From positions 1 to 42,216 of the forward strand of contig JAJTXO010000001.1 of the NCBI GenBank assembly GCA_021463315.1: DNA of 42,216 nt, in the 5' to 3' direction. Positions 12,360 to 39,347 of this stretch are shown in pieces. The notes under the pieces were generated by a model. It did not search any database. It saw nothing but the letters and a program-made list of their open reading frames with translations, and was not told the origin of the DNA. Both the position numbers and the translations under genes were made by a program. Numbering within the stretch: the first letter of the stretch is position 1; every line of letters begins with the position of its first letter. The stretch is from Caldilineales bacterium. Its GTDB lineage: Bacteria > Chloroflexota > Anaerolineae > JAAEKA01.

Positions 12360-15227
12360 TCACTCTCCATCGGCAAACGCCGCGTTTGCCGGCGACCACA
12401 ACTGATTGATCCAATCGTCGAGTTGTGTCAGGCGTTTGCCTTGAGCCAGCAAGACCTGTTTGCTTTCTATGACGTAGTCCCAATCCTCAACCAAGCCACT
12501 CTCTTTTAGCTTCAGACCCGCGCTCTTGGCCCTAATGAGCAGTTCCTTGGCCCTTACTCCATCATCGTCTCGTCGCGCACCGTCGAAATCGGCTTGGAGC
12601 GCCATGATTTGTTGAGCCTTGGCGGCCAAGGCAGCAAGCTTTTCCGCCAACGATTGCCCTGGTGATGCAACAGATGGTGATTGGTCCTTTGCTTCGAACA
12701 ATGCCAGAAGACGAGCGGACTGGTAGAACGGCGCTGCGCCAGCCAGTTCTTCGATGCTGTGTGGCGCAGGGCCGCGTTTTTGATCTCCCCGGCCTTCTTG
12801 GTCCTGCGCCATTTGCCTGAGTGCAGTCGGTATCTGGTCGCTGGTCTCTCGCTGACAGGCGATGACCGAAGAGAGAAGCCGGTCCAACTCTGCCAGCGAC
12901 GCATTCTGATCTAAAGCGGTCTTCAGCTGCTTCAACACGTTGTCCCTCAGAGCCTCGTGCTTGTTGTGGATCACTTCGTCCCACTTGCCGATCAGGGCGT
13001 TAAACGACTCCAGGCTGTCGCCGAAGTCTGCAACTTGGGTCACCGCCCTTGCATGGTCACACGTCAGCCGGGCTTGCTGCAACACCAGCAACGACTGGTC
13101 GGGTTGGCTGGCGGCCTCAACAGCTTGCACATCACGCCAGGCGGTCAGCACCCGGTGCATCCAGAAGGCCAGGGGATGAAAGGTGCGATGAGCAAGGGGT
13201 TCTTTCAGGGCCGCAGCGTCATTCAACGGGCCAGCCAGTCTGCTCAATGCAGTATCCAGGACGCCTGAATTGGCGCGCTCAATGGCAACCATCGCTGCTT
13301 CCTGCAACTTCGTCTGAGCATTGATTGGACTAATCAGCCTTTTCTTCTGTTCTGCCGTCTTTGTCCAATCGATCGCTACACTGCGCCAGAAGTCACTGCC
13401 AGCGGAAGCAGAGTTCAGACCGTTATTCTCCTGACTAGCGCTGGGAAACCTCAAGGCCGCTTCAGAGAAGCGGGCCTGAGCCATCAGCTGATTGACCGAT
13501 CTGAAAGCCCGACGGACGTCGATCTCGCGACGCAGCATTCGAACTCCAGAGTCGTCCAGGACAGGACAAGCGTCATTCGACCAGTTCAGCCAGGTGCTGG
13601 CTGCATCCAAGCCACTGTCAGCCTCAAGATAGCCCGCGGCCTGGATCAGATCCTCAACCGTCTGTGAAGACGGATTGGAGCCGTCTTCCAAGGCAGCCAG
13701 GCACGCCTGGGCCACAACCGCCAGTCGCGCCATTCTGGCTCGGTCCTGGTCATCGGCAGGCGAACTGCTAGCCACGCGCAACTGCTCGGCAGCCTCGCTA
13801 AAGCGCGTCCCACGTAGAGACCGGTACACGTCGGCCAACGGATCGGCCAGCGCCGCCCCGTTTCTGCCAGGCAGAGCATTTCTGATTTCAACAGCGCCAG
13901 TTGTTCCACTGGACTGCGACGCACCAGGCATCGGCTGCGCTGGAAGCTCTATCCCCTGCACAGGTTCTTCGAGAGCGGCTGTTGCTTCGCCCGTCGTGAC
14001 TGCCTCTTCAGGATGTGCATCCGTCGCTGGACTTACTGCACCGGTCAAAGATTCGATCTGCTTCAGGATGGACTGGTGAAGTTGGACACGCGCTTCAAGG
14101 TCTTGGACAACCTCACTTCCAATGACCGCAGGTTCCTCAACAAACGGGGCGATCTCTGTCGAGCTACTCTTAAGCGCCGCAAGCCGCGTCTCTTGCCATG
14201 CTCGCAGCAGGCTCAGTTGTTGCCGTAGGGTCGTAGTTGCCCCGAGATACTTCATTGAGTCTCGGATCTGCTGGCAGGCGCGCTCCAGAGTCTCAAGATT
14301 TTCTTGGGCGATAGCAATGGTCAGGCGCAGAGCGAAGACGGCCTGCATGTCCGCCTGAGATACGGCCATCCACTCGTCACCGACCACGCGTTGGAGGTCG
14401 GCGCGGAGCGCGACTTCGCCTATGCCATCCGAAGCCGACTCAGAAAGAAGCTGACTCACCATCTGGCGCTGTGGATCATTCAGCCACGCTGTCAGTTGGT
14501 TCAGCGCTGGAATGGGATCATGGGAGCTTCGCAGGATGGCCTCTTGCAAGGCAGGCCAACGCGGCAAGAAACCAGCCAGCCTTTCCAGAATGGGAAGGAT
14601 GGGGCCTTGCCCTTCGGTCCATCGCGCGGCGATCGCCAACGCTCGCTCTGCGCCAGCCCCATCGCCGACCTGAGCCAGTGTAATGGCGGCCTGAGCCAGT
14701 TGCAGCGGCTCCGTCTGGGTAGCATGGTCGCGATACGCCTCCTCCATGCATGCGGTCAGATTGGGATACAAGGTCGCCAGATCATGCCATTCGTGTTGGA
14801 CCTCGCGCTCCGAATCCGGCGCCGGCTGGAGTCGCTGCTCCATGGCGCGTCGCGCTTCCTCTGCTTTCCTGTACTTCTGGGCTGCGTCGAAGAAATGGCC
14901 GGTGTGCGAGAGTGACTTGGCGTCACCAATCAGAAGATGCACCTGCATATCCACGTCGAGACATGCCAGCCTTAACGTCTGCGCTTGGTCGTCTCCGCCG
15001 AGCGACGAAACCTGTTGGCGAGCTGCCTCTATCAGGTCGGAATCGTCAAGCCGCAAGTTCTTGAGCGCTACAAGCAATTCGCGCGGCGGTAATTGCTCGA
15101 CAGCCGCATAGGCTTTGGCCACCAGTAAGAAACGTGCAGCTTCAGCGCGCATGGAATCGTCGTCCCAGAATTCGAGGCGCGCCTCCTCAAGCTGTTCGAT
15201 GATGGCAAGAAGGGGGCTATCAGCCAT
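12360..15227 (-). CDS. Large helical-repeat (TPR-like) protein, unknown function (955 aa)
   Basis: The ATG at 15225-15227 overlaps the kinase-fold gene stop by 8 nt (ATGGCTGA). Ala/Leu/Glu/Arg-rich and helix-prone throughout. No TM. Confidence 0.75.
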   Translation of the reverse strand: MADSPLLAIIEQLEEARLEFWDDDSMRAEAARFLLVAKAYAAVEQLPPRELLVALKNLRLDDSDLIEAARQQVSSLGGDDQAQTLRLACLDVDMQVHLLIGDAKSLSHTGHFFDAAQKYRKAEEARRAMEQRLQPAPDSEREVQHEWHDLATLYPNLTACMEEAYRDHATQTEPLQLAQAAITLAQVGDGAGAERALAIAARWTEGQGPILPILERLAGFLPRWPALQEAILRSSHDPIPALNQLTAWLNDPQRQMVSQLLSESASDGIGEVALRADLQRVVGDEWMAVSQADMQAVFALRLTIAIAQENLETLERACQQIRDSMKYLGATTTLRQQLSLLRAWQETRLAALKSSSTEIAPFVEEPAVIGSEVVQDLEARVQLHQSILKQIESLTGAVSPATDAHPEEAVTTGEATAALEEPVQGIELPAQPMPGASQSSGTTGAVEIRNALPGRNGAALADPLADVYRSLRGTRFSEAAEQLRVASSSPADDQDRARMARLAVVAQACLAALEDGSNPSSQTVEDLIQAAGYLEADSGLDAASTWLNWSNDACPVLDDSGVRMLRREIDVRRAFRSVNQLMAQARFSEAALRFPSASQENNGLNSASAGSDFWRSVAIDWTKTAEQKKRLISPINAQTKLQEAAMVAIERANSGVLDTALSRLAGPLNDAAALKEPLAHRTFHPLAFWMHRVLTAWRDVQAVEAASQPDQSLLVLQQARLTCDHARAVTQVADFGDSLESFNALIGKWDEVIHNKHEALRDNVLKQLKTALDQNASLAELDRLLSSVIACQRETSDQIPTALRQMAQDQEGRGDQKRGPAPHSIEELAGAAPFYQSARLLALFEAKDQSPSVASPGQSLAEKLAALAAKAQQIMALQADFDGARRDDDGVRAKELLIRAKSAGLKLKESGLVEDWDYVIESKQVLLAQGKRLTQLDDWINQLWSPANAAFADGE

Positions 15228-16260
15228 GAGTCACCCCCAGTGCGACAAATCTATCTACCAGAGCACGGAAGTTGTCGAGACGCTCGCTTTGCTTCTCCGT
15301 ATCCAGCGCCTTGATCTTCGCATCCATTTCATCGGCCTTGTATCCGCGGCGTCGAACCATGTCCAGGAAGGCAATCGAAAACTGCTCGGCAGCGCTTCCC
15401 TCGATCCGCGAAACTAACTCGGCGGATGGCGCCTGCCATAGACCTAGCTGCTCCATTAGGTCTTTTTTGAGCGCCTCAGCGGACTGGTATTGCTTCTGCG
15501 GCACCGGGTGCAGCGAGCGTTCCAGAATCGACTGCGTACCTCGACTAAGCTTCTGCCATTCTGGTCGAGCGTCCAGGCGGACAACACGCTCGTTGCCCAC
15601 GTTGACATAGCTTGGCGCATGGCCGACCAGGAACTCGTACCAGAAGCTGCCAAAGCGCAAGAAATCGTTGGCAATGCCTGTCGTGCCGCGACCCACCACA
15701 TTCCAGTCCAAGACGATCAGCGGGCCAGCGTCGCCATTGCGCCAATAGATATCGTCGATCTTGCGGTCGCTGGCTGTGTAGCCAGCCGCATGCAGTACCT
15801 GCAACATCTCGGCATACTGGATGGCAGTCCTCAAGCCGAATGACTCTTCCAGCACGTGCTTTGGTTGAGCGACAGCCAGATCGATGAGCTTGTTTACCTG
15901 GACTAACTCCATGATCACCATCGAGTAACTGTTGCCGTCGCTTGTCGGGTACTCGGGCACGAACCTGAGGGGCTCAGGAAAGTAGGACACGGCAAAATTC
16001 TCGACATCTCCCTGCTGCGCCAGGCGCTGTGCGGTGGCGCGCAGCGTTTCGAGAGTATTGAACTCGCTGCGGAAGCTCTCTGCCATGGTCTCGTCCAGAT
16101 CATGGCTTGCGATCTTGACGGCAACTGCGCTGTTGTCGGGCAACTCGCCGCGGAAGACCTGTGAGAGCCGGCCGCTGCCAAGTCGCGCTGCCAGCCTTAC
16201 CTGGCCGAAGCCATCCAAGATGAAGGTGCGTCCTTCCAAGTTAGCCGGTGATGTCGCCAT
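15220..16260 (-). CDS. Hanks-type protein kinase-fold protein, possibly active atypical Ser/Thr kinase (346 aa)
   Basis: Gly-rich loop LGSGRLSQVF. VAVK lysine (K49, codon 16114-16116). Catalytic-loop-like SDRKIDDIYW (D165/K167). DWN in place of DFG (aa 185-187). The start is 6 nt after the stop of the 1831-aa gene. Confidence 0.8.
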   Translation of the reverse strand: MATSPANLEGRTFILDGFGQVRLAARLGSGRLSQVFRGELPDNSAVAVKIASHDLDETMAESFRSEFNTLETLRATAQRLAQQGDVENFAVSYFPEPLRFVPEYPTSDGNSYSMVIMELVQVNKLIDLAVAQPKHVLEESFGLRTAIQYAEMLQVLHAAGYTASDRKIDDIYWRNGDAGPLIVLDWNVVGRGTTGIANDFLRFGSFWYEFLVGHAPSYVNVGNERVVRLDARPEWQKLSRGTQSILERSLHPVPQKQYQSAEALKKDLMEQLGLWQAPSAELVSRIEGSAAEQFSIAFLDMVRRRGYKADEMDAKIKALDTEKQSERLDNFRALVDRFVALGVTHG

Positions 16261-16266
16261 GGCGGC

Positions 16267-19200
16267 TTACCTCGTGTTTTCCTGCAGCAGGATGTCGCGC
16301 ACGACGAGTCGGGCAAACGATAGAAAGTCCTGCACGCCGAGACCGGTCGGCCGATCGCTCAAGTCCCTCGGTTGCTCCTGCAAAAACTGCTGCAAACGAT
16401 CCTGACTGTCGCTCAACACAAGCTTGATATCGGCATCGAGTCGCTGCATCAGTTCAAGGTGGCCGAACCGGTTGCCGGCCCCTTGCGAATTGCCGCCGAT
16501 CACAAACTCCTGCAGGGCTTCTATCAGGGGATCGACCATCTGGAACTGCGACGGCTGCTCAGGCAACCAGTAGGTTGCACTGTCACCCGGGAAGCTCAAG
16601 CCATAGCGGTATTGGTTATCCTGGTAACCGCGCACCACCATGCCACACGCATACGCCTGGGCGAACAAGCGCGCTCGCCCCAGGTCGTGCAAGCCGGCAA
16701 CGAACAGGGGATGGAACAGGCGAGGCGGCTCGCGCAGCTCCCACAGCCGGCTCTCATAGGCCAATGTGTTGACCTCTGCCGCGAATACCTGCACGGGCTC
16801 GGGGCGCGTCTCACCTGACCGGTGATCGGCGCCGCTGATCAGCCCGTGGACACGCAGGTACTCCTCGCTGGTTCGGCTATAGCAGGTCAGTGCAGGCAAG
16901 GGGAGCACGTCGAAGAACGCAATCAGGCCGGCAGCGTAAGGATCGGTTGCCCGAACCTCGCGCACCGTGCCGCCGCCCGGCGCCGAGGCCGTGATACGTC
17001 TGGCAACCTCTTGGCCGGAACGCACCTCTGCACTGGTCCAGAGCAGGCGCTGCAACTGAACGCGCGGGGCCTCGTTGGTCCGGAAGGTCAACGGTGGCTC
17101 GGCATGCGGCCACAGTCGATTGCTTTCACCAGCCACCCTATCGCTGCGCCACAAGTCGTGGTCGAGACGCTCGGCCAGGCGTTCACGCCACACCTCTTGT
17201 CCCAGCGCGTCGGCCAGCTCCTGCAACGCCTGGAGGAAGGCCGTGCCGCCAGAGGCGTCGGAGACGAAAACGCGGTCTTCCCAGTGCCGCACTACCAATT
17301 CCAGCCCACCTTGCTCGCGCGTGCGCCAGAAGATGCGTTCCAGCGCCGGTTCCAGATGTTGAGCGTAAAAGTCCATGTACAGGCTGTTGACCAGATCGTC
17401 GTCGGCAAAGGCCTTGCGAGAGACTACGGCTCGCATCTCCTCACGCGCTCGCTGCAGAGCAGCTTCTGTCGCCACCAAGCGTCGATACACTCCGCCGCTG
17501 TCGGGATCGGCGGCGACGGGCGCACGGAGCAGGAATTCCTCGCCTGCGGTTAGGTTCTGGCGCAGCCGCGCTGTCACAGCGGCGCAATGCTCGGCGCAAG
17601 TCGTGAGCAGATCAGCGAATACCATTTTGCCCGCGCCCACGGTATCGCGATGGCCCTGCACGCGGCGCTTGCCTTCGGCCAGCAATCGCTCGACCTCGGC
17701 CAGGAACTCGCTGGCGTAGCGGATCTTGCCGCTGCGGGCCTCGACCACATCGAAAGTCTCGGGCCGGCCGTTCAAGAGCCGCAGAACGCCCGGCGTCAAC
17801 CATTGTTCGAAGGCCTTGGCGCTTTCGGTCGCATAGCGGTCGCGCCCCTGGTTTTCCGCTGTTTGCATCAGCTCGCGGGCGCGGCGGTCATTGTGCGTCG
17901 ACCAGCCTTGCAGAGCCGTCTCCACCAGCAACGCAACCGGATCGCCAGCTCCTGGTAGAGCTTGCCGCGCCAACAGCGCCGGCGGTTGATCCTTGTGCTC
18001 CAGGTCGTGGCGAACGTCCAGCGATAGCGTGGCGCCATAGGCGTCACTGGCCTGTGCGGCGGCCGCATTGCGCCCTACCAGCCACAACTGCACTAATTCA
18101 CGGGCAAAGCGCACGTTGCAGGCTTTCACCAGATCCGCCAACGGCAGGCGATAAGTGGAGCAGCCTAATCCGCTGACCACGCCAACCTTGCGCTGAATCT
18201 GCTCATCGGCAGTTGTTGTGCGGGTGTTGTCACGATACTGTGCCAGCACACTGCCCGGCTCGCTGGCGCCTTTGTCTATCAGCACTTGCAACGCGTCGGC
18301 CATCATCGGGAATGTTCCTACCTGAGGACGGTACAGACACAGGTCATGTTGGTCACGATGGCCATCGAAGATGAAGCAATCGTCCAGTAGGCTTTGGGTG
18401 AGCATGTGGTCCCCCAGATCATCCCGGCTGCCGGCCCGGTACTGCATGGGGAAGGGGCGATTCTGCGCCAAAAGGAAGCGATTGATCTCGCGCAGGGCTG
18501 CCAGGGTATTGACGCGCATCTGCGGCGTGCGTCCGACCTCGGCGAAAGGATCCTCGGTAGCCAACAGCGCACTGACCGTAGCGCCTTTCAGTCCGGCGCG
18601 CTGGGCTGCCAGCCGCGCCAGATAGGCGACATCGGCCAGAGCCCCGCTGCCGAAGCCGCCGCCCAGCGACCCCACGATCAAAATCTGCGCGTGGTCAGCG
18701 CGGGCGACGGCTTGCAGCGCGCTCGACAGTTGGCGCCAGAGCTTGGACGCCTGCTCCCCCTGCTGAATATCACGAAATACCACAGCACGACCGATCGGCC
18801 GTCGTTGCCCTGTGCTCTGCCGAGCATCCTGCTCGACCGGCCTCAAGCGCCGGCTGTAGTCTTGGGCAGGGAACCAGCCGGCCATCTCTGATTCCTGTCC
18901 TGCAACAGCCCGCTGGATTACTGAACCAATGTCCTCGCCCAGCACGAGAACCTCGCTGTCGCTTAGTTGAACGCCGGCGAAGCGCACCGCAACGTTCTGC
19001 CCGCCCGCCCATTCTTCACGGTTGGAGTCCAGACACAAGAGACGCACCGGGCCTTCCAGTCGTCCTGCCGAAGCCATCGACAGGTTATGCTTGAGGTGTG
19101 TGAGCACCCAGCGCCCTGCGCCGCCCAAGCCCAGGACAACTGTTGGGGTCGCTTCCCACTCAACCTTGGGGCCAGCCCAGACATCGAGGAAGGGTGGCGG

Positions 19201-21762
19201 CTCGCGGCCGCCGCTCGGCACAACTGGCATACCCTGCAAACTCTCGGTAGGCAGCCGGCGGCACAACAGCCAGCACAGCAGTAACAATGGCAGCAACGGC
19301 AGCAGCCAGGGCCACAACGCCAGCAGACGGTCACCCAATGGCAACACTTGCTGCGGCGGCCCCCAGGCCGGCGTATGCTCGAAGATGCCGGGCTCGGCTG
19401 CTCCCTGCAACGGGATGGCGGGGCTTGTTGAGCCATCGGCTGCAACCTCAGTGACAAAGATGTCGTAGTTGGGGTCATTGCGCTTGCTGCTGAACGCCAG
19501 AAAACGGCCATCTCGGGACCAGGTTGCCCACGAGTTGCTGACGTTGGTCAATGGTTCGCCAGCCGGCCCATCGTTAGCTGCAATGCGCAAGCGTTCTCCG
19601 CCTTCGGCCGGCACCAGGAACACCTCGGCCTCGGGCGCCGAATAAGTGTCTTGCGATGCCGTGTTGGTGTGGCGGGTGAACGTAAGCCACAGACCGTCGG
19701 GGGAATACGAGGGATAGTAGTTCAGGCCATCGCCGCTCGCTCCCGCCAGAGCCGTTGGCTCGCCGCCTGTGACCGGCACCGTGAAGATATCCGCATCATC
19801 GGTGACATTGAACCCCGACCCGCTTCTGGTTGAGCGCACAAAGGCCAGCGTTTGGCCGTCTGGCGACCAGCCGGGCATAGTCTCGATAACACTGGGATCA
19901 CTGGCGCCCGGTACCAACGTAATCGAGCCGCTGTCAATATCCAGAATCGCGATGTCCTCGTCGTTTTGTGAGAAGGCAAGCTGGTTTCCATCCGGCGACC
20001 AGGCCAGATACGAGGCACGGATATCTGGTGTTTGGACAGTCCGTCCGTCCAGGGTCGTAATCTGCAAGAAGCCGGTGGCTGTGGTGGTGACAGCCGCGAT
20101 CCGGCCGCTGCTGGCAGAAATGGTGTGGCAGCCAACGCAGCCCGCGCTGTTCTGTGCCCGTACCGGTTCTGGCGGCAGACTGCTCAGTGGATCAATGGTA
20201 TAGATGCCTGAGGCTCCGCTTTGCAGACGCCAGAAGTACACCGTTTCGGTCGGCTGACACACCGAGGCGAAGATCTCCCGGCCCAACAAGAAGGCCAGAA
20301 GCAGCGTGTACAGAACCAGCGCCAGACGGCAAAGGCGACAGCCCCATTTGGCGTTGGCCCACCATTCGCCGATGCTGCGTCGCAGCAAGAACGGGATAAG
20401 CAGCCAGAGCAGCAGAGCAAGCAACGGCAGCAACAGCAGGAGCACCCACCGCCAGGAAGACACACAGCTCACTGCCGTGCCAAGGGCCAAGTTGCTGATC
20501 CCGGGCGTGGGTGTAGGCGCTGGAGCCAGTGTTGGCGTCGGCGTAGGCGGTGGGCCGGTGGGAGAGGGTGACGCCGTTGGTGTAGCGGTTGGACCTTGGG
20601 CGATCTGCAACGGCGTGCTGGTGGGGCCAGGCGACACGACCCACGGCCCGCTGGCCAGGTTGCTGTGGATATAGCCGTTGCAGTCGATGCCGGCCATGCC
20701 GCTGAAAAGCTGCACCTGATCCGGGGCTGTAGGCCGCAGCTTGACCTTGTAGGTCAGTTCAATGGACTGATCGCGCATGGCTTCCGGGATATCCCAGACG
20801 ACCTTGTTGCTCTCGATGCGTCCACCCGGCCCTGTCACTCCAGACAGATCAACAAGATTGCCCGGCTCCCAGATATCCTCCAGGTGGAAGTTGCGCGCAA
20901 CCAGATTGACGTCGCCTTCGCTGGCCTGAACGAACAGACGTCGTATCTCTTCAGGCTGAGGATCGGGAAAGAAGTTCTCCGGCGGAACGAGCGCGCTGGC
21001 TTGCTCGGCAGATACCTGATCCACCTCATTGATCACGAGGCTGTTGGCGACCAGGTAGATCGGGATCTCCGCCCCGATTTCGGCCGCTGCTGCTTGCGCG
21101 CCAGCCGTCAAGGGTACGATGTCGTGCAACATAAGCACGATAGCCTGCGCGTTACCTGTCGCCTCCGTCTGCAAATGCTGGGCAGCCAACCGAATCGCCT
21201 GAGCGATATCGGTGTCGCCGCCCACCTGAATGCCGGTCACAGCCGTGCGAAGCTGGTCGAAGTCAGACGTCAGCGCCTGCTCGATGATTGGCACAGGGCC
21301 AGTATCGCCTACCGTACTGGTGACGATAGCAACCCGAGATTGGGCAGGTGGCGCTGTGAGCTGCTCATACACCGGCTGTTCAAGGTTGTCAAGCAGTTGC
21401 AACGAGAATGTGACGGTCTGCGACCAGTTGATCCTTCCGGCGCTGGAAGAGACATCGTAGATCAGGACAGTATCAACCGGACGGCCCGGTATGCCCAGAC
21501 ATTCGGGCAGGTTCTGACCCACCAGCCTGATGGTGACCAGGGTTTCCTGATCCCTGCTCAGGCCTGGCGGGTCGAGAGTACGGTCGATGGCGACACTGGC
21601 TGGCACGGGACCAGGAACTTGAGGAGCGCGAGGGATTGGCGTTTCCTGCGCTGCCTGGACGATCGGCGTTGCAATCACATACGATGCAACTGCCAGCACG
21701 ATGAGCAACGACAGGCACGTCAAAATGAAGACGGGTCTTTTGGAAAAGCTGGACTGGGTCAT
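16267..21762 (-). CDS. 1831-aa four-TM fusion protein: extracytoplasmic vWA + PT linker, extracytoplasmic PD40/TolB-like beta-propeller, cytoplasmic tubulin/FtsZ-like GTPase domain with long C-terminal extension
   Basis: Signal anchor aa 12-32. vWA MIDAS DVSSS (21442-21456). PT linker aa 380-420. TM2 aa 437-460, Arg/Lys loop, TM3 aa 477-494. Four PD40-type repeats (LAWSPDGNQLAF, PGWSPDGQTLAF, PSYSPDGLWLTF, ATWSRDGRFLAF). TM4 aa 814-835. GLGGAG (19114-19131). Tubulin-signature-like GGGFGSG (18643-18663) in ILIVGSLGGGFGSGALADVAYL. GGAG lies 8 nt upstream of the ATG. Confidence 0.85.
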   Translation of the reverse strand: MTQSSFSKRPVFILTCLSLLIVLAVASYVIATPIVQAAQETPIPRAPQVPGPVPASVAIDRTLDPPGLSRDQETLVTIRLVGQNLPECLGIPGRPVDTVLIYDVSSSAGRINWSQTVTFSLQLLDNLEQPVYEQLTAPPAQSRVAIVTSTVGDTGPVPIIEQALTSDFDQLRTAVTGIQVGGDTDIAQAIRLAAQHLQTEATGNAQAIVLMLHDIVPLTAGAQAAAAEIGAEIPIYLVANSLVINEVDQVSAEQASALVPPENFFPDPQPEEIRRLFVQASEGDVNLVARNFHLEDIWEPGNLVDLSGVTGPGGRIESNKVVWDIPEAMRDQSIELTYKVKLRPTAPDQVQLFSGMAGIDCNGYIHSNLASGPWVVSPGPTSTPLQIAQGPTATPTASPSPTGPPPTPTPTLAPAPTPTPGISNLALGTAVSCVSSWRWVLLLLLPLLALLLWLLIPFLLRRSIGEWWANAKWGCRLCRLALVLYTLLLAFLLGREIFASVCQPTETVYFWRLQSGASGIYTIDPLSSLPPEPVRAQNSAGCVGCHTISASSGRIAAVTTTATGFLQITTLDGRTVQTPDIRASYLAWSPDGNQLAFSQNDEDIAILDIDSGSITLVPGASDPSVIETMPGWSPDGQTLAFVRSTRSGSGFNVTDDADIFTVPVTGGEPTALAGASGDGLNYYPSYSPDGLWLTFTRHTNTASQDTYSAPEAEVFLVPAEGGERLRIAANDGPAGEPLTNVSNSWATWSRDGRFLAFSSKRNDPNYDIFVTEVAADGSTSPAIPLQGAAEPGIFEHTPAWGPPQQVLPLGDRLLALWPWLLPLLPLLLLCWLLCRRLPTESLQGMPVVPSGGREPPPFLDVWAGPKVEWEATPTVVLGLGGAGRWVLTHLKHNLSMASAGRLEGPVRLLCLDSNREEWAGGQNVAVRFAGVQLSDSEVLVLGEDIGSVIQRAVAGQESEMAGWFPAQDYSRRLRPVEQDARQSTGQRRPIGRAVVFRDIQQGEQASKLWRQLSSALQAVARADHAQILIVGSLGGGFGSGALADVAYLARLAAQRAGLKGATVSALLATEDPFAEVGRTPQMRVNTLAALREINRFLLAQNRPFPMQYRAGSRDDLGDHMLTQSLLDDCFIFDGHRDQHDLCLYRPQVGTFPMMADALQVLIDKGASEPGSVLAQYRDNTRTTTADEQIQRKVGVVSGLGCSTYRLPLADLVKACNVRFARELVQLWLVGRNAAAAQASDAYGATLSLDVRHDLEHKDQPPALLARQALPGAGDPVALLVETALQGWSTHNDRRARELMQTAENQGRDRYATESAKAFEQWLTPGVLRLLNGRPETFDVVEARSGKIRYASEFLAEVERLLAEGKRRVQGHRDTVGAGKMVFADLLTTCAEHCAAVTARLRQNLTAGEEFLLRAPVAADPDSGGVYRRLVATEAALQRAREEMRAVVSRKAFADDDLVNSLYMDFYAQHLEPALERIFWRTREQGGLELVVRHWEDRVFVSDASGGTAFLQALQELADALGQEVWRERLAERLDHDLWRSDRVAGESNRLWPHAEPPLTFRTNEAPRVQLQRLLWTSAEVRSGQEVARRITASAPGGGTVREVRATDPYAAGLIAFFDVLPLPALTCYSRTSEEYLRVHGLISGADHRSGETRPEPVQVFAAEVNTLAYESRLWELREPPRLFHPLFVAGLHDLGRARLFAQAYACGMVVRGYQDNQYRYGLSFPGDSATYWLPEQPSQFQMVDPLIEALQEFVIGGNSQGAGNRFGHLELMQRLDADIKLVLSDSQDRLQQFLQEQPRDLSDRPTGLGVQDFLSFARLVVRDILLQENTR

Positions 21763-21887: not shown

Positions 21888-24800
21888 TCAACGCACGCCA
21901 CGAGATGCTTCCAGTAGGCTCACAATCGCTTCCTGGACGCTCTTGATCTCATCTTCCAAGGCCAGCCAGAACACAGTGGCGACATCACGAATCTGTACGG
22001 AGTTGTTCGTGTCCTTGAGATCTTTGAGGACATCTTCTTGTCTGGCTTTTAAGATATCCCTTTCACCCAAGAGCCTTCTGGCGCGTTCCTGGTCGGCAGG
22101 CGGCAGATTGACCAGGTGCGTTTGGATCGGCTTGTCAATGGTCAATTCCTGATCGAGTCGACGAGACACAGCCATGGTCTTGGCGTCCTCGATGGCGCGT
22201 TGCATTCGATCGTACGGAATGCGCTCCTCGATCTCGTAATGGGCGTCTTTGCCGATGTATTGGAACGTCTCCAACGCTTGCAAGAGGCTTGGCGTGCCCT
22301 GTTCGGGCAGCGTCAGATAGATCTTCGACTCGCGCTGCTCGCCAAACAACCGCTGAGAGATGTTCTCTTCAGGCAGCTTGAGGGCGTAGTAATGCACACG
22401 ACTGCCGCCTGTCTCATCCCCGCCGCGGCCGACTACTCCATAGACCCATGCTCGCACGAACATGCGAAACTGCTCGATGTTCTCCAGTTGCAGCACAACT
22501 TCGTTGTGCAGCTCACGCGCCGGCACGTTGAGTTCCCTGGGAATGCGAGCTTCGAACTTTGCGGCATTAACTTCTGCCGGAAACAGGTGGAGGGTTTCAC
22601 GGCCCAGCACACCCCGGGCGTCAGCATTTTCAACTCGCTGAGCGTAGTTAAGGTAAGCGGGACGGGCGCCAGTATAGGACTGAACACTGTCCAAAGGCAC
22701 TAGATCGAGCGTGTAAATTAGACGGCATGCGAACCGATCAGCCGAAGAAATAACTTCATTGAGGACGCCCGTGGCGCCACTGATTTTCACCAACGCCGTC
22801 TTGACGCCGTCCAAGTAGATACGCTCCTGACCGTCCCTGCCATGGGAGACATGGAAGTAATTGGCAGGCGTAGTACCCGTGCCGCCAGTTATCATCAGCA
22901 ACGGGCCGCCGTTGTCCACAAGCTCCTTTGCCAGCGCCTCGGACCGGGGATACTTGATCATCAGGTACTTCAGAATCGACTCCTGTTGCCAAACGTCGCG
23001 GAATATCTCGCGGCACCGACTCAATAGAGTCTCGAGGTTGCGCTCCTGGCCGCGACCATCGCTCTCTGCCTGTTGATCAGCGATAGCCAGGGTCAGGCTG
23101 GTGACGTCCTTCCCGCCGCTGCGTCGTTTCTCGATACCCCAGGTCAAGTCGTTGAGCACCGCAGCCAAGCCATCCTGCAGCTCCTGGGTGTACTTGTTGT
23201 ACAAGCCATCGTAGTACTCTTGGCGGTCCGCCGGTTCAGGTAGCACACGCCGCACTTTGACCTCGCCTTGCTCCTGAAGGATGTCGCTCAACTTCTTCTG
23301 GCCCCTGATCGTCCAACCATACAAGCCGTCATAGCCCAGGGCCAGGATCTGGCTCCATGAATCGGCCGACTCCTTGAGGCCGCGCACGTAGTCCTGCATC
23401 TGGCGCGCGCTCTGTCGGAGTACAGCCTCCGTCAGATCTACCTTCGCCATCCCAATTAGCTCTTCCTCAGCCTGCAGGTAGGCCTTCTGGGAGCCACCCC
23501 ACCCAAGGATGCCGCCCGGCTTCCGTTCCATCTCCTGGCGAGCAGACTGCACATTTCCCAACAAGGAAACGCGGGTGCCCAGTTGCTCGCGCAACTCATG
23601 TGTGGCGTCCAACGCAAGGATGAAGCGTCCGAGCAGTAGGTCCAGGCCGTCCAGCATGTCGCGTGCATAGGCCAGCTTACCCGTTTTGGACTCGACAGGC
23701 TTGCGCTGTGAGCTGCCATTCAGCACATTGATTATCTCCAATCGTAAAGCATCCCGAAACCGGTCGACATGCTTAGCGGAGTAGAGCTCTAGCGCCTGCC
23801 GGTATTTACCACCGCTGCGTTGGCCGGTGCGCGAATCCTCACGGCCCAAATGCTCCGCCTTGTAGCGCTCCACGCCCGGCTGAATGCGCACAACAGCATC
23901 CTGCGGCTTTTCTCCTGCGAGTTTCGGCGGAACCTCAGCCGACAACCGGCTGGACAGCTCGACTTGCACTTGTTGGCGAATGGCGAGCACATCAGGGGTG
24001 TCGCCGGTTGGATCGAGAACCGTCTCCCACTCCTCAGGATTGCGAGCTGCCAGCTCTTGGAAGAGCGCTTGATTCTGCAGGCTATAGCGAGAGGCTATGC
24101 GCAAGATCTCCCCGGGAAGCAGGGTCATCATGATCTTCTCGTCGCTGGTAAGCGATACCACTTCCCCGGTTTGCATGAATTGCATGGCTGCGTCGCGACC
24201 ACGGCTGCCATCGCCAGCCTCCAGGTTGCGATCTGCGGCCAATCTCGTGGGGTAACCGTCCTCATCCAGCGTCGCAGGCGTCGTGAGCGCCTCCAATATC
24301 TGCAACGTCAATCGATGCGCCAGCCAATCGACAATCTGTCGCATAGGCAAGCTCATCGTATAGGTTCCAATGGCGCTGTCAAAGGCTGTCGAGCTGGTGA
24401 CATCCTCCGATCGACCGGCGGCGGTGATGACATTCTGGTTGTGCTGTCCATACTTGTCCTCAGGGTCGTCCAGCATGGCAACAACGGCGTCGCCGATGGT
24501 CGCCGTCACACCAAACTTCGGAAGAACCTGGGTCAAGGGATTGTTGGCTCGCTGTCCATCGATGTGATAGAGCGAGTCGAAAAGTTTGGTCCTGATTTCC
24601 GACCGCCATACACCACCTTTGCCGGAGGGCTGGTAGTACATCGGATATCCGGTGTCCCAGACGAAGTCCACCATGAAACGGCGATTCTCGCGCATGGCTG
24701 CATATGAGCGTGCTCGCATCGAGGTGTCAATGCCAGTGGGGATGGCGCTGAACGCCTCGGGCAGGACGAGAAAGCCGCGCATGGTGACTTTCTGATCGTT

Positions 24801-25364
24801 CTGATCTTCTTTGGCGATCATGCGCACCAGGTAGGCGAGATCGACGAACATCCCGGCTCCAGTGCCACCAGCCACGGAGCTTACGAGATAGACGTCGAGA
24901 TTCTTGATCTGGCCGGTGTTGCGGATGTCGGTGAGTGCGTTGTTGATCAGCTTCTTGATATTCGACAGTGCCGGAGCAGATACGTCACGGAAGACGGCCA
25001 AACGGCCAAACTGACGCAACTGACCGGCGCCCCGCTGCAAGGTGAAGGAAGCGCGAGGCAGCGTCTTGAGATAGGTCTCGGCCTGGAACCAGGAAGCGAC
25101 GTGAGGGTGCTTGTTGCGACGCACCTCTACGGCGTAGTCGTAGACGTCGCCGCCAATCCAGAAATATTCTCCTGGCTCCAGGGTCACGCCTCGTAGCGTG
25201 TTGTTAGAGTTGTCCATTGGTTCCTGATCCTGAACAGTATCAAGCGCCAGCAAGCGAACGTTAGGCGGTAGCTTGCGCTGTTCACCCCCCGTCAGTTGCG
25301 CTTTGATGTGTTGCAAGGTCAGTACTCCTGTACCGCCGAGTCCAATGATGAGCCCTGCCTTCAT
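21888..25364 (-). CDS. Soluble tubulin/FtsZ-like GTPase (Tubulin_2-type) with about 700-aa helical C-terminal extension (1158 aa)
   Basis: N-terminal MKAGLIIGLGGTGVLTL (G-x-G-G-x-G). Canonical tubulin signature GGTGAG (24852-24869) in YLVSSVAGGTGAGMFVDLAYL. No TM. GAGAGGAA lies 6 nt upstream of the ATG. Confidence 0.8.
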   Translation of the reverse strand: MKAGLIIGLGGTGVLTLQHIKAQLTGGEQRKLPPNVRLLALDTVQDQEPMDNSNNTLRGVTLEPGEYFWIGGDVYDYAVEVRRNKHPHVASWFQAETYLKTLPRASFTLQRGAGQLRQFGRLAVFRDVSAPALSNIKKLINNALTDIRNTGQIKNLDVYLVSSVAGGTGAGMFVDLAYLVRMIAKEDQNDQKVTMRGFLVLPEAFSAIPTGIDTSMRARSYAAMRENRRFMVDFVWDTGYPMYYQPSGKGGVWRSEIRTKLFDSLYHIDGQRANNPLTQVLPKFGVTATIGDAVVAMLDDPEDKYGQHNQNVITAAGRSEDVTSSTAFDSAIGTYTMSLPMRQIVDWLAHRLTLQILEALTTPATLDEDGYPTRLAADRNLEAGDGSRGRDAAMQFMQTGEVVSLTSDEKIMMTLLPGEILRIASRYSLQNQALFQELAARNPEEWETVLDPTGDTPDVLAIRQQVQVELSSRLSAEVPPKLAGEKPQDAVVRIQPGVERYKAEHLGREDSRTGQRSGGKYRQALELYSAKHVDRFRDALRLEIINVLNGSSQRKPVESKTGKLAYARDMLDGLDLLLGRFILALDATHELREQLGTRVSLLGNVQSARQEMERKPGGILGWGGSQKAYLQAEEELIGMAKVDLTEAVLRQSARQMQDYVRGLKESADSWSQILALGYDGLYGWTIRGQKKLSDILQEQGEVKVRRVLPEPADRQEYYDGLYNKYTQELQDGLAAVLNDLTWGIEKRRSGGKDVTSLTLAIADQQAESDGRGQERNLETLLSRCREIFRDVWQQESILKYLMIKYPRSEALAKELVDNGGPLLMITGGTGTTPANYFHVSHGRDGQERIYLDGVKTALVKISGATGVLNEVISSADRFACRLIYTLDLVPLDSVQSYTGARPAYLNYAQRVENADARGVLGRETLHLFPAEVNAAKFEARIPRELNVPARELHNEVVLQLENIEQFRMFVRAWVYGVVGRGGDETGGSRVHYYALKLPEENISQRLFGEQRESKIYLTLPEQGTPSLLQALETFQYIGKDAHYEIEERIPYDRMQRAIEDAKTMAVSRRLDQELTIDKPIQTHLVNLPPADQERARRLLGERDILKARQEDVLKDLKDTNNSVQIRDVATVFWLALEDEIKSVQEAIVSLLEASRGVR

Positions 25365-33760: not shown

Positions 33761-33964
33761 GCAATATCTCCAGGGTCTTCGGTTGGCAGAAGGCGCAATA
33801 CCGGTGGTTGCGAATTCCACCTGCCATCACTCGGCAAGACAGTCGAGCGTTGGGAAATCTTTCAACGGCGGGACTGAATCGTGAGGTACAAATCCAACGT
33901 CATTTTGTGCCCGTGACAATGGTGTGCTAGATTCACCTGTCGGCGCTGACCACAACCAAGTCCT

Positions 33965-35954: not shown

Positions 35955-36030
35955 GGTCGTGTGCGTTCGAGTGAACGTGATCCTGAGCGAGCCGTGATCC
36001 CAGTTCCTGCCACAGCATACACCACCTGCC

Positions 36031-36074
36031 CTATCATCGTTCTATCATCTCCCTATCAACTTCCCATCATCTTG
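36031..36074 (-). promoter_or_regulatory. Four tandem degenerate 11-bp repeats (CTATCATC core) upstream of the NB-ARC gene
   Basis: CTATCATCGTT (36031-41), CTATCATCTCC (36042-52), CTATCAACTTC (36053-63), CCATCATCTTG (36064-74). The period is exactly 11 bp. They lie 77-120 nt upstream of the ATG at 35954. Confidence 0.4.
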
Positions 36075-36148
36075 CTGTGAGCGACAACCGCACCGCCGTC
36101 CGGCCCTCTCCCTGCCCCTTCCATCACGTTGCCATGTGGGCGCAATGG

Positions 36149-37072: not shown

Positions 37073-37089
37073 AGAATATCCTGACGCAC

Positions 37090-39249: not shown

Positions 39250-39347
39250 TGTGGACGATTCCCTTCTCTCAAGCTGTGTTCTTTTGCCTGGCAAGACCTA
39301 AGCCACTACTATTGCACCTGGGTTGTCGGGCATGGACGTCAGCGCTC

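What the first reader, a model, noticed from the sequence alone, without database searches (positions are those of the whole stretch)
16267..21762. Single 1831-aa polypeptide wiring an external vWA domain and a PD40 propeller to a cytoplasmic tubulin-like GTPase through four TM helices
Seen: the order is signal anchor (aa 12-32), vWA with DVSSS MIDAS, PT linker, TM2 (aa 437-460), a short Arg/Lys-rich loop, TM3 (aa 477-494), four WSPDG-type PD40 repeats (about nt 19450-20010), TM4 (aa 814-835), then GLGGAG (19114-19131) and GGGFGSG (18643-18663). About 790 further residues follow. The positive-inside rule fits both ligand-binding domains being outside and the GTPase being inside.

Inference: a receptor covalently fused to a cytomotive-filament-type GTPase is unusual. 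It is loosely reminiscent of integrins, which have a vWA-type I domain plus a beta-propeller outside and a cytoskeletal link inside. Here the cytoskeletal element would be part of the same chain. I do not know of a characterised example.
Basis: partly seen in the sequence, partly recalled or inferred. Interest (0 to 1): 0.85.

Follow-up and report, generated by a model that had tools for sequence, protein, structure and literature searches.

The report
Membrane receptor fused to tubulin-like GTPase
This is a real, conserved bacterial gene (Chloroflexota relatives) that joins two outward-facing binding domains through the membrane to a complete copy of FtsZl1, a very divergent and never-studied branch of the tubulin/FtsZ family; the partnership of these parts was already predicted from gene neighbourhoods, but their fusion into one chain seems undescribed and gives a direct way to test what this family does.

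Summary
ORF 16267-21762(-) encodes 1831 aa in this order: N-terminal anchor, vWA with an intact MIDAS motif, beta-sandwich, Pro/Thr linker, TM hairpin, TolB-like PD40 propeller, TM4, then a full-length Pfam Tubulin_2 domain (E 3e-30), a helical region and an alpha/beta C-terminal domain. AlphaFold models are confident. The cytoplasmic part retrieves only FtsZ, CetZ, TubZ and tubulin from the PDB.

It is not a mis-assembly. The same fusion occurs in well over 100 protein clusters, mostly Chloroflexota, and on at least 15 independent contigs for the 89%-identical orthologue. dN/dS is 0.08.

The GTPase belongs to FtsZl1 (Makarova and Koonin 2010). That family is known from gene neighbourhoods to associate with vWA proteins and kinases. 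No T7 catalytic loop can be identified, so calling it "cytomotive" is unproven.

New points:
- The cytoplasmic part is a whole FtsZl1 protein.
- A soluble FtsZl1 paralogue is always encoded just upstream. Fused and soluble forms are two old lineages.
- The module phosphatase, vWA-Ig, soluble FtsZl1, fused receptor, kinase is syntenic across Chloroflexota.
- A CxxCH motif is co-conserved with the propeller.

The likely function is an outside-in sensor that drives GTP-dependent FtsZl1 assembly at the membrane. It is a new variant of a known, uncharacterised kind.

The parts
16267..21762 (-). Whole ORF, 1831 aa: membrane receptor fused to an FtsZl1 protein
   Evidence: Homologues of 26-89% identity share the architecture. 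Overall dN/dS is 0.08.
21673..21741 (-). N-terminal hydrophobic segment (aa 8-30). It is either a signal anchor or a long signal peptide. K8 and R9 precede it, and a possible VQA|AQ cleavage site follows.
   Evidence: Kyte-Doolittle peak of 2.65. AlphaFold2 helix at aa 8-29. Cleavage was not tested.
20917..21477 (-). vWA domain (aa 96-282), predicted to lie outside the cell. The MIDAS motif DVSSS is aa 103-107, nt 21442-21456.
   Evidence: Pfam VWA and VWA_2. D103/S105/S107 are invariant. Foldseek matches to the vWA adhesins SpaC and Mfa5, to ANTXR2 and to the integrin beta-I domain.
20632..20916 (-). All-beta (sandwich-like) domain after the vWA domain (aa 283-377)
   Evidence: AlphaFold2 strands at aa 287-377, pLDDT about 90. 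dN/dS 0.16. No Pfam match.
20467..20631 (-). Pro/Thr-rich disordered linker (aa 378-432)
   Evidence: Sequence. pLDDT below 50 over aa 371-431.
20260..20454 (-). TM2 (aa 437-459), short Arg/Lys/Cys-rich cytoplasmic loop, and TM3 (aa 473-501): a helical hairpin
   Evidence: Conserved in all fused homologues. dN/dS 0.05.
19360..20244 (-). TolB-like PD40 beta-propeller (aa 507-801), predicted to lie outside the cell
   Evidence: Pfam PD40, 66 bits. TIGR02800 TolB, E 1e-12, below cutoff. Foldseek TolB, E 9e-15. phmmer hits to TolB chains.
20125..20139 (-). CVGCH (aa 542-546): a CxxCH motif at the entrance of the propeller, possibly a covalent haem-c or metal site
   Evidence: Present in 54 of 55 fused homologues that have the PD40 module and in 0 of 31 that lack it. 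No cytochrome c Pfam domain matches. Haem binding is untested.
19261..19338 (-). TM4 (aa 809-834), followed by CRRL and basic residues
   Evidence: LWPWLLPLLPLLLL is nearly invariant in the family.
18025..19152 (-). FtsZl1 / Tubulin_2 GTPase-like domain (aa 871-1246), predicted cytoplasmic. T1 GLGGAG is nt 19114-19131 and T4 GGGFGSG is nt 18643-18663.
   Evidence: Pfam PF13809, E 3e-30, full length. AlphaFold2 pLDDT above 90. Foldseek top 50 are all FtsZ, CetZ, TubZ or tubulin, aligned over 340-360 columns, TM-score (target-normalised) 0.45-0.49 for the best. hhalign aligns T1 and T4 to E. coli FtsZ.
17068..17982 (-). Long-helix / coiled-coil-like middle region (aa 1261-1565)
   Evidence: AlphaFold2 helices at cytoplasmic-fragment residues 421-720. 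Only weak PDB hits to helical bundles. dN/dS 0.12.
16270..17067 (-). Conserved alpha/beta C-terminal domain (aa 1566-1831), shared with soluble FtsZl1 proteins. Motifs include FAAE.N....E.RL and FHP.
   Evidence: BLASTP against the neighbouring paralogue, E 4e-13. Invariant E1663, E1670 and R1672. No Pfam or PDB relative.
21888..25364 (-). Soluble FtsZl1 paralogue (1158 aa, no TM), encoded 125 nt upstream. It is the probable assembly partner.
   Evidence: Pfam Tubulin_2, E 2e-43. No TM segments. Always adjacent in L001, L005, L006, L008 and L009. Belongs to a separate soluble lineage.
25429..28347 (-). Second vWA protein (972 aa): N-terminal signal or anchor, vWA, Filamin/Ig-like repeats, C-terminal TM
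   Evidence: Syntenic in related loci.
28371..29282 (-). Calcineurin-like metallophosphoesterase (about 303 aa from the internal Met). The DxH, GD, GNHD and GHTH motifs are present.
   Evidence: Syntenic.
15220..16260 (-). Protein-kinase-like protein (346 aa). It starts 6 nt after the stop of the fused gene. VAVK Lys, a catalytic-loop Asp (SDRK) and DWN (in place of DFG) are present.
   Evidence: Weak Pfam matches: ABC1 23.8 bits (cutoff 22.9), Pkinase 23.3 bits (below cutoff). Sequence. A kinase gene occupies this position in all related loci.
29279..33820 (-). Very large TPR-containing protein (1513 aa) at the head of the gene row
   Evidence: A homologue is present in L006 and L016, and weakly in L001.

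Best explanation
**What it is.** The gene encodes a multi-pass membrane protein. Its relatives are almost all from Chloroflexota.

Two ligand-binding modules face outward. One is a MIDAS-competent vWA domain with a beta-sandwich. The other is a TolB-like PD40 propeller carrying a conserved CxxCH motif. They are separated by a TM hairpin. A fourth TM helix leads to a complete FtsZl1 (Pfam Tubulin_2) protein in the cytoplasm, made of a tubulin/FtsZ-fold nucleotide-binding domain, a long-helix region and a family-specific C-terminal domain.

It is the membrane-bound member of a conserved pair of FtsZl1 paralogues. The soluble member is encoded just upstream. Both sit in a syntenic module with a second extracellular vWA-Ig protein, a metallophosphatase and a kinase-like protein.

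**Proposed mechanism (inferred, not shown).**
1. A protein or envelope ligand binds the ectodomains, or the CxxCH site senses redox state.
2. This changes the clustering or conformation of the receptor.
3. The change drives GTP-dependent self-assembly or hetero-assembly of the FtsZl1 domain with the soluble paralogue on the inner face of the membrane.
4. The kinase and phosphatase set the threshold.

**Shown:** the architecture, the fold, conservation of the T1 and T4 nucleotide-binding motifs, paralogue pairing, synteny and purifying selection.

**Inferred:** topology, GTP binding, assembly, signalling direction and the biological output (envelope or membrane remodelling versus a conflict or immunity response).
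For: -
- The TM segments and charge bias are conserved across the family.
- The MIDAS, T1 and T4 residues are invariant or nearly so.
- The cytoplasmic part aligns with the soluble paralogue in both the Tubulin_2 domain (E 2e-27) and the C-terminal domain (E 4e-13), so it is a whole FtsZl1 protein.
- The AlphaFold2 model of aa 841-1831 has pLDDT 91.6 and pTM 0.91. All 50 top Foldseek PDB hits are FtsZ, CetZ, TubZ or tubulin, aligned over the full FtsZ length.
- The ectodomain model retrieves TolB (E 9e-15) and vWA adhesins.
- The gene order phosphatase, vWA-Ig, soluble FtsZl1, fused receptor, kinase recurs in five other Chloroflexota loci and in close relatives.
- A neighbour-joining tree of 180 Tubulin_2 domains splits the fused and soluble lineages with 168 of 180 correctly assigned.
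- dN/dS is 0.02-0.16 in every domain.
- The soluble lineage keeps the canonical GGTG[SA]G T4 signature. The fused lineage replaces the Thr with F, M or V. This is compatible with functional asymmetry within a pair.
- The association of FtsZl1 with vWA proteins and kinases was described by Makarova and Koonin 2010. Tubulin-coiled-coil genes next to a multi-TM protein with an extracellular vWA domain were described by Kaur et al. 2020.
Against: - No T7-type catalytic or activating loop can be identified by sequence.
- Foldseek TM-scores are modest (0.45-0.49) with high rmsd.
- No FtsZl1 protein has ever been shown to bind GTP or polymerise.
- About a quarter of the fused lineage, though not this protein, has Asp in place of the T4 glycines. 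Some members may therefore not bind nucleotide.
- Topology was not computed with a dedicated predictor or tested experimentally.
- Nothing here identifies a ligand or an output.
- Hetero-assembly with the paralogue rests only on adjacency and co-conservation.
Confidence: 0.5

Rival explanations
1. Conflict or immunity reading. The module is a surface-sensing branch of the NTP-dependent, threshold-controlled conflict systems described for multicellular bacteria. The ectodomains detect an invader or damage. FtsZl1 multimerisation then acts like STAND or tubulin/HSP70 assemblies to trigger a suicide or immune response. This concerns the output and is compatible with the assembly mechanism above.
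For: - Kaur et al. 2020 place tubulin-coiled-coil plus TM-vWA genes in the GAP1-N2 conflict systems.
- The ectodomains vary while the cytoplasmic part stays constant: CAP domain present or absent, and the PD40/CxxCH module replaced by another domain.
- The neighbourhood holds a STAND/NB-ARC-like NTPase, a vWA-FHA protein and a C39-like peptidase.
- Distribution across genomes is patchy.
Against: - No PADLOC defence model matches any of the ten neighbouring proteins scanned, apart from generic kinase similarity.
- No P-loop GTPase or GAP1 core was found in the gene row.
- No recognisable toxin or effector domain is present.
- Selection is strongly purifying and the gene order is stable across Chloroflexota classes.
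Confidence: 0.3
2. Switch, not filament. The FtsZl1 domain is a nucleotide-dependent dimerisation or conformational switch, or even a nucleotide-independent scaffold. In that case the protein is a receptor with an unusual signalling domain and not a receptor coupled to a cytoskeleton.
For: - T6-H7-T7 elements cannot be identified by sequence.
- There is no conserved acidic residue after the putative H7. Only Q348, and in the smaller alignment also R337, are conserved at that position.
- TM-scores to FtsZ are modest.
- Part of the fused lineage has a degenerate T4.
- The large helical and C-terminal domains could mediate assembly instead.
Against: - Foldseek aligns 340-360 columns, which is the whole two-domain FtsZ body.
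- According to Makarova and Koonin, every characterised member of the superfamily polymerises.
- The paired-paralogue arrangement resembles alpha/beta-tubulin and BtubA/B.
Confidence: 0.3
3. Membrane or envelope remodelling machine (the Makarova and Koonin hypothesis). The pair builds a membrane-attached scaffold. The scaffold shapes the membrane, or couples the wall or sheath of filamentous Chloroflexota to the cytoplasm. The ectodomains would anchor it to envelope components rather than sense signals.
For: - The hypothesis was proposed for FtsZl1 operons because most partners are membrane proteins.
- The TolB-like propeller and the vWA adhesin-like folds are typical envelope or protein-binding modules.
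- A second vWA-Ig protein is anchored in the membrane.
- The relatives are mostly from Chloroflexota, many of which are filamentous (general knowledge).
Against: - No envelope-synthesis genes lie in the module.
- The presence of a kinase and a phosphatase, and the variation of the ectodomains, fit signalling better.
- There is no direct evidence.
Confidence: 0.25
4. Artefact. The ORF is a mis-assembly or read-through that joins separate genes, or the topology is inverted.
For: None was found. In other phyla the components do occur as separate genes.
Against: - The same 1831-aa product (89% identity) lies on at least 15 contigs from NCBI, JGI and ENA assemblies with identical neighbours.
- Dozens of more distant homologues have the same order.
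- The junction region (TM4 plus linker) is the most constrained part, with dN/dS 0.02.
- An inverted topology would put a GTP-dependent domain outside the cell and would contradict the charge bias.
Confidence: 0.02

Closest known systems
FtsZl1 (FtsZ-like 1) family, Pfam Tubulin_2 PF13809, and its predicted vWA/FtsZl1/protein-kinase operons (Makarova and Koonin 2010, PMC2875224)
   Same: - There is a full-length PF13809 match.
- The helical and C-terminal extension is shared with a bona fide soluble FtsZl1 protein.
- The operon contains vWA proteins with intact MIDAS motifs and a kinase.
- T1 and T4 are conserved, while T6-H7-T7 cannot be recognised by sequence.
   Different: - Here the membrane vWA protein and the FtsZl1 protein are one polypeptide with 3-4 TM helices and a second ectodomain (PD40 propeller plus CxxCH).
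- The 2010 survey listed only one Chloroflexi member, which was unfused (Cagg_1316, 763 aa). It noted a TM fusion only for one archaeal protein.
- The divergent P-loop GTPases frequent in those operons are absent here.
Tubulin-containing GAP1-N2 GTPase-centric systems (Kaur, Burroughs, Iyer and Aravind 2020, PMC7159879, section 29)
   Same: - There are two tubulin-homologue genes with C-terminal helical or coiled-coil regions.
- There are two vWA proteins, one with several TM helices and an extracellular vWA domain.
- A kinase and a phosphatase can accompany the system.
- The systems are linked to bacteria with a multicellular habit.
   Different: - No DO-GTPase, GAP1 or FNIII-repeat core was detectable here.
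- The phosphatase is calcineurin-like, not PP2C.
- That paper describes the tubulin theme as restricted to Firmicutes and Actinobacteria, whereas this module is from Chloroflexota.
- Here the TM-vWA and tubulin components are fused.
FtsZ, CetZ, TubZ, BtubA/B and alpha/beta-tubulin
   Same: - The predicted fold is the same, with Foldseek probability 1.0 (best hit CetZ2, 4b45).
- The T1 and T4 nucleotide-binding loops are present.
- Adjacent paralogue genes recall BtubA/B and alpha/beta-tubulin.
   Different: - Identity is 12-17% and the TM-score is at most 0.49.
- There is no identifiable T7.
- About 600 extra C-terminal residues are present.
- The domain is covalently anchored in the membrane rather than tethered through adaptors such as FtsA or ZipA.
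- There is no evidence of polymerisation.
Integrins
   Same: - The ectodomain contains both a vWA-fold domain with MIDAS and a beta-propeller.
- The idea of coupling an outside ligand to an inside cytoskeletal element is shared.
- Foldseek finds the integrin beta-I domain among its vWA hits (3vi3_D, E 2e-7).
   Different: - This is a single chain, not an alpha/beta heterodimer.
- The two ectodomains lie on different extracellular loops.
- The propeller is TolB/PD40-type, not the integrin FG-GAP type.
- The cytoplasmic element is part of the chain, not recruited through talin or kindlin.
- There is no evidence of common descent beyond the vWA fold.
TolB (Tol-Pal system)
   Same: A PD40 beta-propeller gives the best structural match (E 9e-15) and weak sequence matches.
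   Different: There is no TolB N-terminal domain. The propeller is membrane-embedded at both ends. It carries a CxxCH motif that TolB lacks. There is no Tol-Pal gene context.

Membership tests
FtsZ/tubulin superfamily | T1 glycine-rich loop (GxGxxG) after strand S1 | tested here: met
   GLGGAG is aa 878-883. G878, G880 and G883 are invariant. hhalign pairs it with E. coli FtsZ residues 15-62.
FtsZ/tubulin superfamily | T4 signature GGGTG(S/T)G | tested here: met
   GGGFGSG is aa 1034-1040. hhalign pairs it with FtsZ residues 98-124. Thr is replaced by Phe. In the fused lineage this position is F, M or V, whereas the soluble lineage keeps T.
FtsZ/tubulin superfamily | Two-domain FtsZ/tubulin fold (Rossmann-like GTPase domain, core helix H7, C-terminal domain) | tested here: met
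   AlphaFold2 pLDDT is 91.6. The Foldseek top 50 are all superfamily members, aligned over 340-360 columns, probability 1.0, E down to 1e-4. TM-score is only 0.45-0.49.
FtsZ/tubulin superfamily | T7 loop with a catalytic acidic residue that completes the neighbour's GTP site (the basis of polymerisation-coupled hydrolysis) | tested here: inconclusive
   No alignment beyond T4/H5 was obtained by profile comparison. Per-column conservation shows no conserved Asp or Glu after the putative H7. Model coordinates could not be superposed with these tools.
FtsZ/tubulin superfamily | GTP binding, GTP hydrolysis and filament formation | not testable with these tools
   Biochemistry is required.
FtsZl1 / Pfam Tubulin_2 (PF13809) | Match to the family model above the gathering threshold over its whole length | tested here: met
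   106 bits against a cutoff of 27, profile positions 1-356 of 356.
FtsZl1 / Pfam Tubulin_2 (PF13809) | C-terminal helical or coiled-coil extension typical of the family | tested here: met
   Helices at cytoplasmic-fragment residues 421-720. The C-terminal domain is homologous to that of the soluble paralogue.
FtsZl1 / Pfam Tubulin_2 (PF13809) | Operon association with a vWA-domain protein (MIDAS intact) and often a protein kinase | tested here: met
GAP1-N2 GTPase-centric conflict system (Kaur et al. 2020) | Core TRAFAC-clade GTPase(s) with zinc ribbons, plus GAP1 | tested here: not met
   No Walker A or NKxD motif occurs in any ORF of the gene row. The only P-loop is a STAND-like NTPase at 34545-35954. 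There are no Pfam or NCBIfam GTPase hits. Sensitivity is limited because no GAP1 profile was available.
GAP1-N2 GTPase-centric conflict system (Kaur et al. 2020) | Two tubulin-coiled-coil genes plus two vWA genes, one of them multi-TM with an extracellular vWA domain | tested here: met
   All are present, but one tubulin and the TM-vWA protein are fused.
Known anti-phage defence systems (PADLOC-DB 2.0) | Match of any component to a defence-system model | tested here: not met
   Only generic kinase similarity was found for the 346-aa protein.
Integrin | Alpha/beta heterodimer of single-pass subunits with an FG-GAP propeller and a beta-I domain in one head | tested here: not met
   This is a single chain with 3-4 TM helices. 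The propeller is PD40/TolB-type.
c-type cytochrome / haem-c sensor domain | CxxCH motif in an extracytoplasmic segment | tested here: met
   CVGCH is aa 542-546. It is present in 54 of 55 PD40-bearing homologues and 0 of 31 without PD40.
c-type cytochrome / haem-c sensor domain | Recognisable cytochrome c domain, covalent haem and a maturation system in the genome | not testable with these tools
   No cytochrome c Pfam family scored at E of 0.1 or better. The genome beyond the 42-kb window is unknown. Haem staining would be needed.

The most novel reading that the evidence does not exclude
The protein is a prokaryotic outside-in receptor. An extracellular ligand or redox event, sensed through the vWA/MIDAS site and a haem-c-bearing propeller, directly nucleates a membrane-attached heteropolymer. 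The polymer is GTP-dependent, belongs to the tubulin superfamily and is built from the receptor's own FtsZl1 domain and its soluble paralogue. A kinase/phosphatase pair gates the process. This would be the first case of a cytoskeletal polymer subunit that is itself a transmembrane receptor. It would also give the first function to the deepest-branching family of the tubulin/FtsZ superfamily.
Probability: 0.2. Interest if true: 0.85.

Novelty: new variant of a known kind. Interest (0 to 1): 0.6.

Why it matters
FtsZl1 is the most divergent branch of the tubulin/FtsZ superfamily. It has been proposed to date from before the last common ancestor of cellular life, yet no member has a known activity, structure or function.

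The fusion acts as a "Rosetta stone". It implies that the membrane vWA proteins and the FtsZl1 proteins, which are merely neighbours in other phyla, work as one physical unit. It also fixes their geometry: binding domains outside, tubulin-like domain on the inner face of the membrane.

The fusion defines a natural paired system of one anchored and one soluble paralogue. The confident models allow constructs to be designed, for example aa 841-1831 together with the 1158-aa partner.

This makes several questions directly testable:
- Does FtsZl1 bind GTP?
- Does it polymerise without a recognisable T7 loop?
- Is the system signalling, envelope architecture or immunity?

If the CxxCH site binds haem, the protein would also be a new type of extracytoplasmic redox sensor.

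Tried and rejected
- **Mis-assembly.** Rejected on the evidence of independent contigs, distant homologues with the same order, and the constrained junction.
- **Solved structure of a relative.** A profile search of PDB sequences with the cytoplasmic alignment found only spurious helical-bundle hits. No FtsZl1 structure is available by sequence.
- **Locating T7 by profile comparison with E. coli FtsZ.** Protein comparison and local hhalign were run in local and global modes with a 180-sequence profile. Only T1 and T4 aligned, and the global mode failed outright.
- **Known defence systems.** PADLOC gave nothing specific. NCBIfam gave nothing beyond TolB-like and phosphodiesterase similarities.
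- **GAP1-N2 membership.** No P-loop GTPase was found in the gene row.
- **Cytochrome c domain around the CxxCH motif.** None was found in Pfam or among PDB sequence hits to the propeller, which were all TolB or peptidase propellers.
- **Naming the organism.** The window itself was not among the GTDB representative genomes, and cluster members carry no organism names. Chloroflexota is inferred from relatives only.
- **Literature on the fused architecture.** None was found. Subscription-only papers are not covered.
- This was a coordinate slip, corrected.

Full report

Yes. The minus-strand ORF 16267-21762 is open for 1831 codons from an ATG.

Pfam gives three matches:
- VWA, aa 97-239
- PD40, 66 bits
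- Tubulin_2 (PF13809), aa 875-1225, E 3.2e-30, covering the whole model

Four hydrophobic segments appear in a Kyte-Doolittle scan. AlphaFold2 models them as helices at aa 8-29, 437-459, 473-501 and 809-834.

No topology predictor was available, so topology rests on four lines of evidence:
- Basic residues concentrate before TM1, in the TM2-TM3 loop and after TM4. In 51 four-TM homologues the mean K+R is 7.2 inside against 3.8 outside, with inside greater than outside in 42 of 51.
- vWA and TolB-like propellers are typical extracytoplasmic modules.
- A CxxCH motif and the conserved cysteines C433 and C502 lie on the predicted outer side.
- A nucleotide-dependent domain must face the cytoplasm.

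Whether segment 1 is cleaved is unknown.

**2. It is a genuine, constrained gene.**

An orthologue of 89% identity and identical length lies on at least 15 contigs from NCBI, JGI and ENA assemblies with the same neighbours. Against it, dN/dS is 0.08 overall and 0.02-0.16 for every domain. The lowest value is at the TM4 junction.

Word-indexed searches found 23 and then 44 clusters with the same architecture at 26-89% identity. Several carry an extra N-terminal CAP domain, and some have another domain in place of the propeller.

An exhaustive search of 1.84 billion representatives with the cytoplasmic part gave 855 relatives at E ≤ 1e-3, 413 at E ≤ 1e-10 and 156 at E ≤ 1e-30. Of 193 relatives in hand, about 131 carry the Tubulin_2 domain behind an N-terminal extension of at least 300 aa, which in most of them contains TM segments and a PD40 and/or vWA domain. 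Simpler two-TM "vWA-TM-FtsZl1" versions also exist.

In GTDB representative genomes, 11 of the 14 loci are Chloroflexota MAGs: Anaerolineae, Ca. Aquidulcis and Chloroflexaceae. The window is therefore probably from Chloroflexota, but this is an inference.

**3. What the parts are.**

The ectodomain model (pLDDT 80.6) shows these elements:
- a vWA fold at aa 96-280
- a beta-sandwich at aa 287-377
- a disordered Pro/Thr linker
- the TM hairpin
- a propeller at aa 507-801

Foldseek retrieves TolB (E 9e-15). For the vWA part it retrieves the pilus adhesins SpaC and Mfa5, ANTXR2, ArnB and the integrin beta-I domain.

The cytoplasmic model (aa 841-1831) is very confident, with pLDDT 91.6 and pTM 0.91. 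Its 50 best PDB matches are all FtsZ, CetZ, TubZ, BtubA or tubulin. The alignments span 340-360 columns, which is the length of a whole FtsZ body. Identity is only 12-17% and TM-scores (target-normalised) reach 0.45-0.49 at best. No PDB chain is related by sequence.

At sequence level only S1-T1-H1-S2 and S4-T4-H4 align to E. coli FtsZ. No conserved acidic T7-like residue follows the putative core helix. This matches what Makarova and Koonin reported for FtsZl1. The fold claim is therefore supported. The "cytomotive filament" claim is not tested.

**4. The cytoplasmic part is a complete FtsZl1 protein with a partner.**

PF13809 is the FtsZl1 family of Makarova and Koonin. The gene just upstream (21888-25364) is a soluble 1158-aa FtsZl1 protein (Tubulin_2, E 2e-43; no TM segments).

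The cytoplasmic 991 aa of the target align with it in two regions:
- the GTPase-like domain (25% identity, E 2e-27)
- the last ~200 residues (27% identity, E 4e-13)

A neighbour-joining tree of 180 Tubulin_2 domains separates a membrane-fused lineage from a soluble lineage at a single split, with 168 of 180 correctly assigned. The window's two genes fall on opposite sides.

Both lineages keep T1, D1044, E1092, R1095 and D1156. The soluble lineage has the canonical GGTG[SA]G, while the fused lineage replaces the Thr with F, M or V. About a quarter of fused proteins, though not this one, have Asp in place of the T4 glycines. This asymmetry hints at a division of labour within a pair, but that is speculation.

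**5. Context.**

The tightly spaced gene row runs: TPR giant, calcineurin-like phosphoesterase, vWA-Filamin/Ig protein with a C-terminal TM, soluble FtsZl1, fused receptor, kinase-like protein. Gaps run from an 8-nt overlap to 125 nt.

The same order recurs in Chloroflexota loci L001, L005, L006, L008 and L009, and in the close relatives L016-L018. The kinase-like protein keeps the VAVK lysine, a catalytic-loop Asp and a DWN in place of DFG. The phosphatase keeps all its metal-binding motifs.

Further upstream lie a STAND/NB-ARC-like NTPase, a C39-like peptidase and a vWA-FHA membrane protein.

**6. Comparison with what is known.**

The association of FtsZl1 with vWA proteins (some membrane-bound, MIDAS intact) and protein kinases was described in 2010 and interpreted as membrane remodelling.

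In 2020, Kaur et al. placed tubulin-coiled-coil genes in their GAP1-N2 GTPase-centric conflict systems. In Firmicutes these have two tubulin genes and two vWA genes, one of them multi-TM with the vWA domain outside. The window has exactly these four functions, but one tubulin and the TM-vWA protein are a single chain.

It fails the defining feature of those systems. No P-loop GTPase or GAP1 is detectable, although no GAP1 profile could be used. No PADLOC defence model matches.

The 2010 dataset contained a single, unfused Chloroflexi member. A 2023 survey only notes "important N/C-terminus extensions". I found no description of this fusion.

The integrin comparison is an analogy only.

**7. 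Mechanism.**

The most likely sequence is as follows:
1. The ectodomains bind a ligand. The vWA/MIDAS site would bind an acidic residue of a protein. The propeller would bind a peptide or envelope component, possibly with a haem or metal at the CxxCH site.
2. The signal passes through the TM helices.
3. It controls GTP-dependent assembly of the FtsZl1 domain with the soluble paralogue at the membrane.
4. The kinase and phosphatase tune the process.

The shown and inferred steps are separated in the Best explanation section. The output remains open: conflict response, envelope scaffold or another form of signalling. A non-polymerising switch is a serious rival.

**8. Verdict.**

The finding is real and well conserved. 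It is a new variant of a known but entirely uncharacterised kind. It is moderately to highly interesting because it offers an experimentally tractable entry into FtsZl1 biology.

Noticed in passing
window 20125-20139 (-), aa 542-546 of the target: There is a CVGCH (CxxCH) motif about 40 residues after TM3, at the start of the propeller. It is present in 54 of 55 fused homologues that carry the PD40 module and in 0 of 31 that lack it. It may be a covalent haem-c or metal site, which would make the propeller a redox or ligand sensor. No cytochrome c domain model matches.
   Followed up: partly
window 34545-39294 (-): Three more signalling-type genes lie upstream on the same strand. They are a vWA + FHA membrane protein (37090-39294), a Peptidase_C39-like protein with an N-terminal TM (36149-37072), and a STAND/NB-ARC-like P-loop NTPase (34545-35954, Walker A GIGGAGKT). 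Together with the FtsZl1 module this looks like a large signalling or conflict-type island.
   Followed up: no
window 5959-8907 (-): This 982-aa ORF has no Pfam hit. Its N-terminus (aa 8-245) nevertheless resembles the kinase domain of the long kinase that follows the fused gene in locus L003 (25% identity, E 9e-8). It may be a second, cryptic kinase-like protein in the row.
   Followed up: no
window 28371-29387 (-) and 29279-33820 (-): The mechanically listed GTG start of the phosphatase ORF (29387) overlaps the preceding 1513-aa ORF by about 109 nt. Relatives have a 304-aa product. The real start is therefore probably the Met at about nt 29282, 2 nt after the upstream stop, which suggests translational coupling.
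   Followed up: partly
homologues P0015-P0018 (not in the window): These more distant fused homologues carry an extra pair of glycine-rich hydrophobic segments, for example LLIGGALGFLGGLFAGAVL. The segments lie about 400 residues after the T1 loop, inside what is cytoplasmic in the window protein. They may be a glycine-zipper membrane insertion.
   Followed up: no
target aa 433 and 502 (nt ~20464-20466 and 20257-20259): Two near-invariant cysteines lie just before TM2 and just after TM3. Both are on the predicted outer face and could form a disulfide that clamps the hairpin. C475 in the cytoplasmic loop and C834 at the end of TM4 are also conserved.
   Followed up: no
Tubulin_2 alignment of 180 homologues: In the fused lineage the Thr of the GGGTGSG signature is replaced by F, M or V. 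About 25% of fused members have Asp at the two central glycines. The soluble lineage keeps GGTG[SA]G in about 90% of members. This suggests unequal nucleotide handling in the two paralogues.
   Followed up: partly
window 12360-15227 (-) and 15220-16260 (-): In other Chloroflexota loci the kinase that follows the fused gene is 454-1499 aa. Here, and in the 89% relative, it is only 346 aa and overlaps by 8 nt a 955-aa ORF with no detectable domains. That ORF showed no similarity to the long kinases at E < 1e-5.
   Followed up: partly
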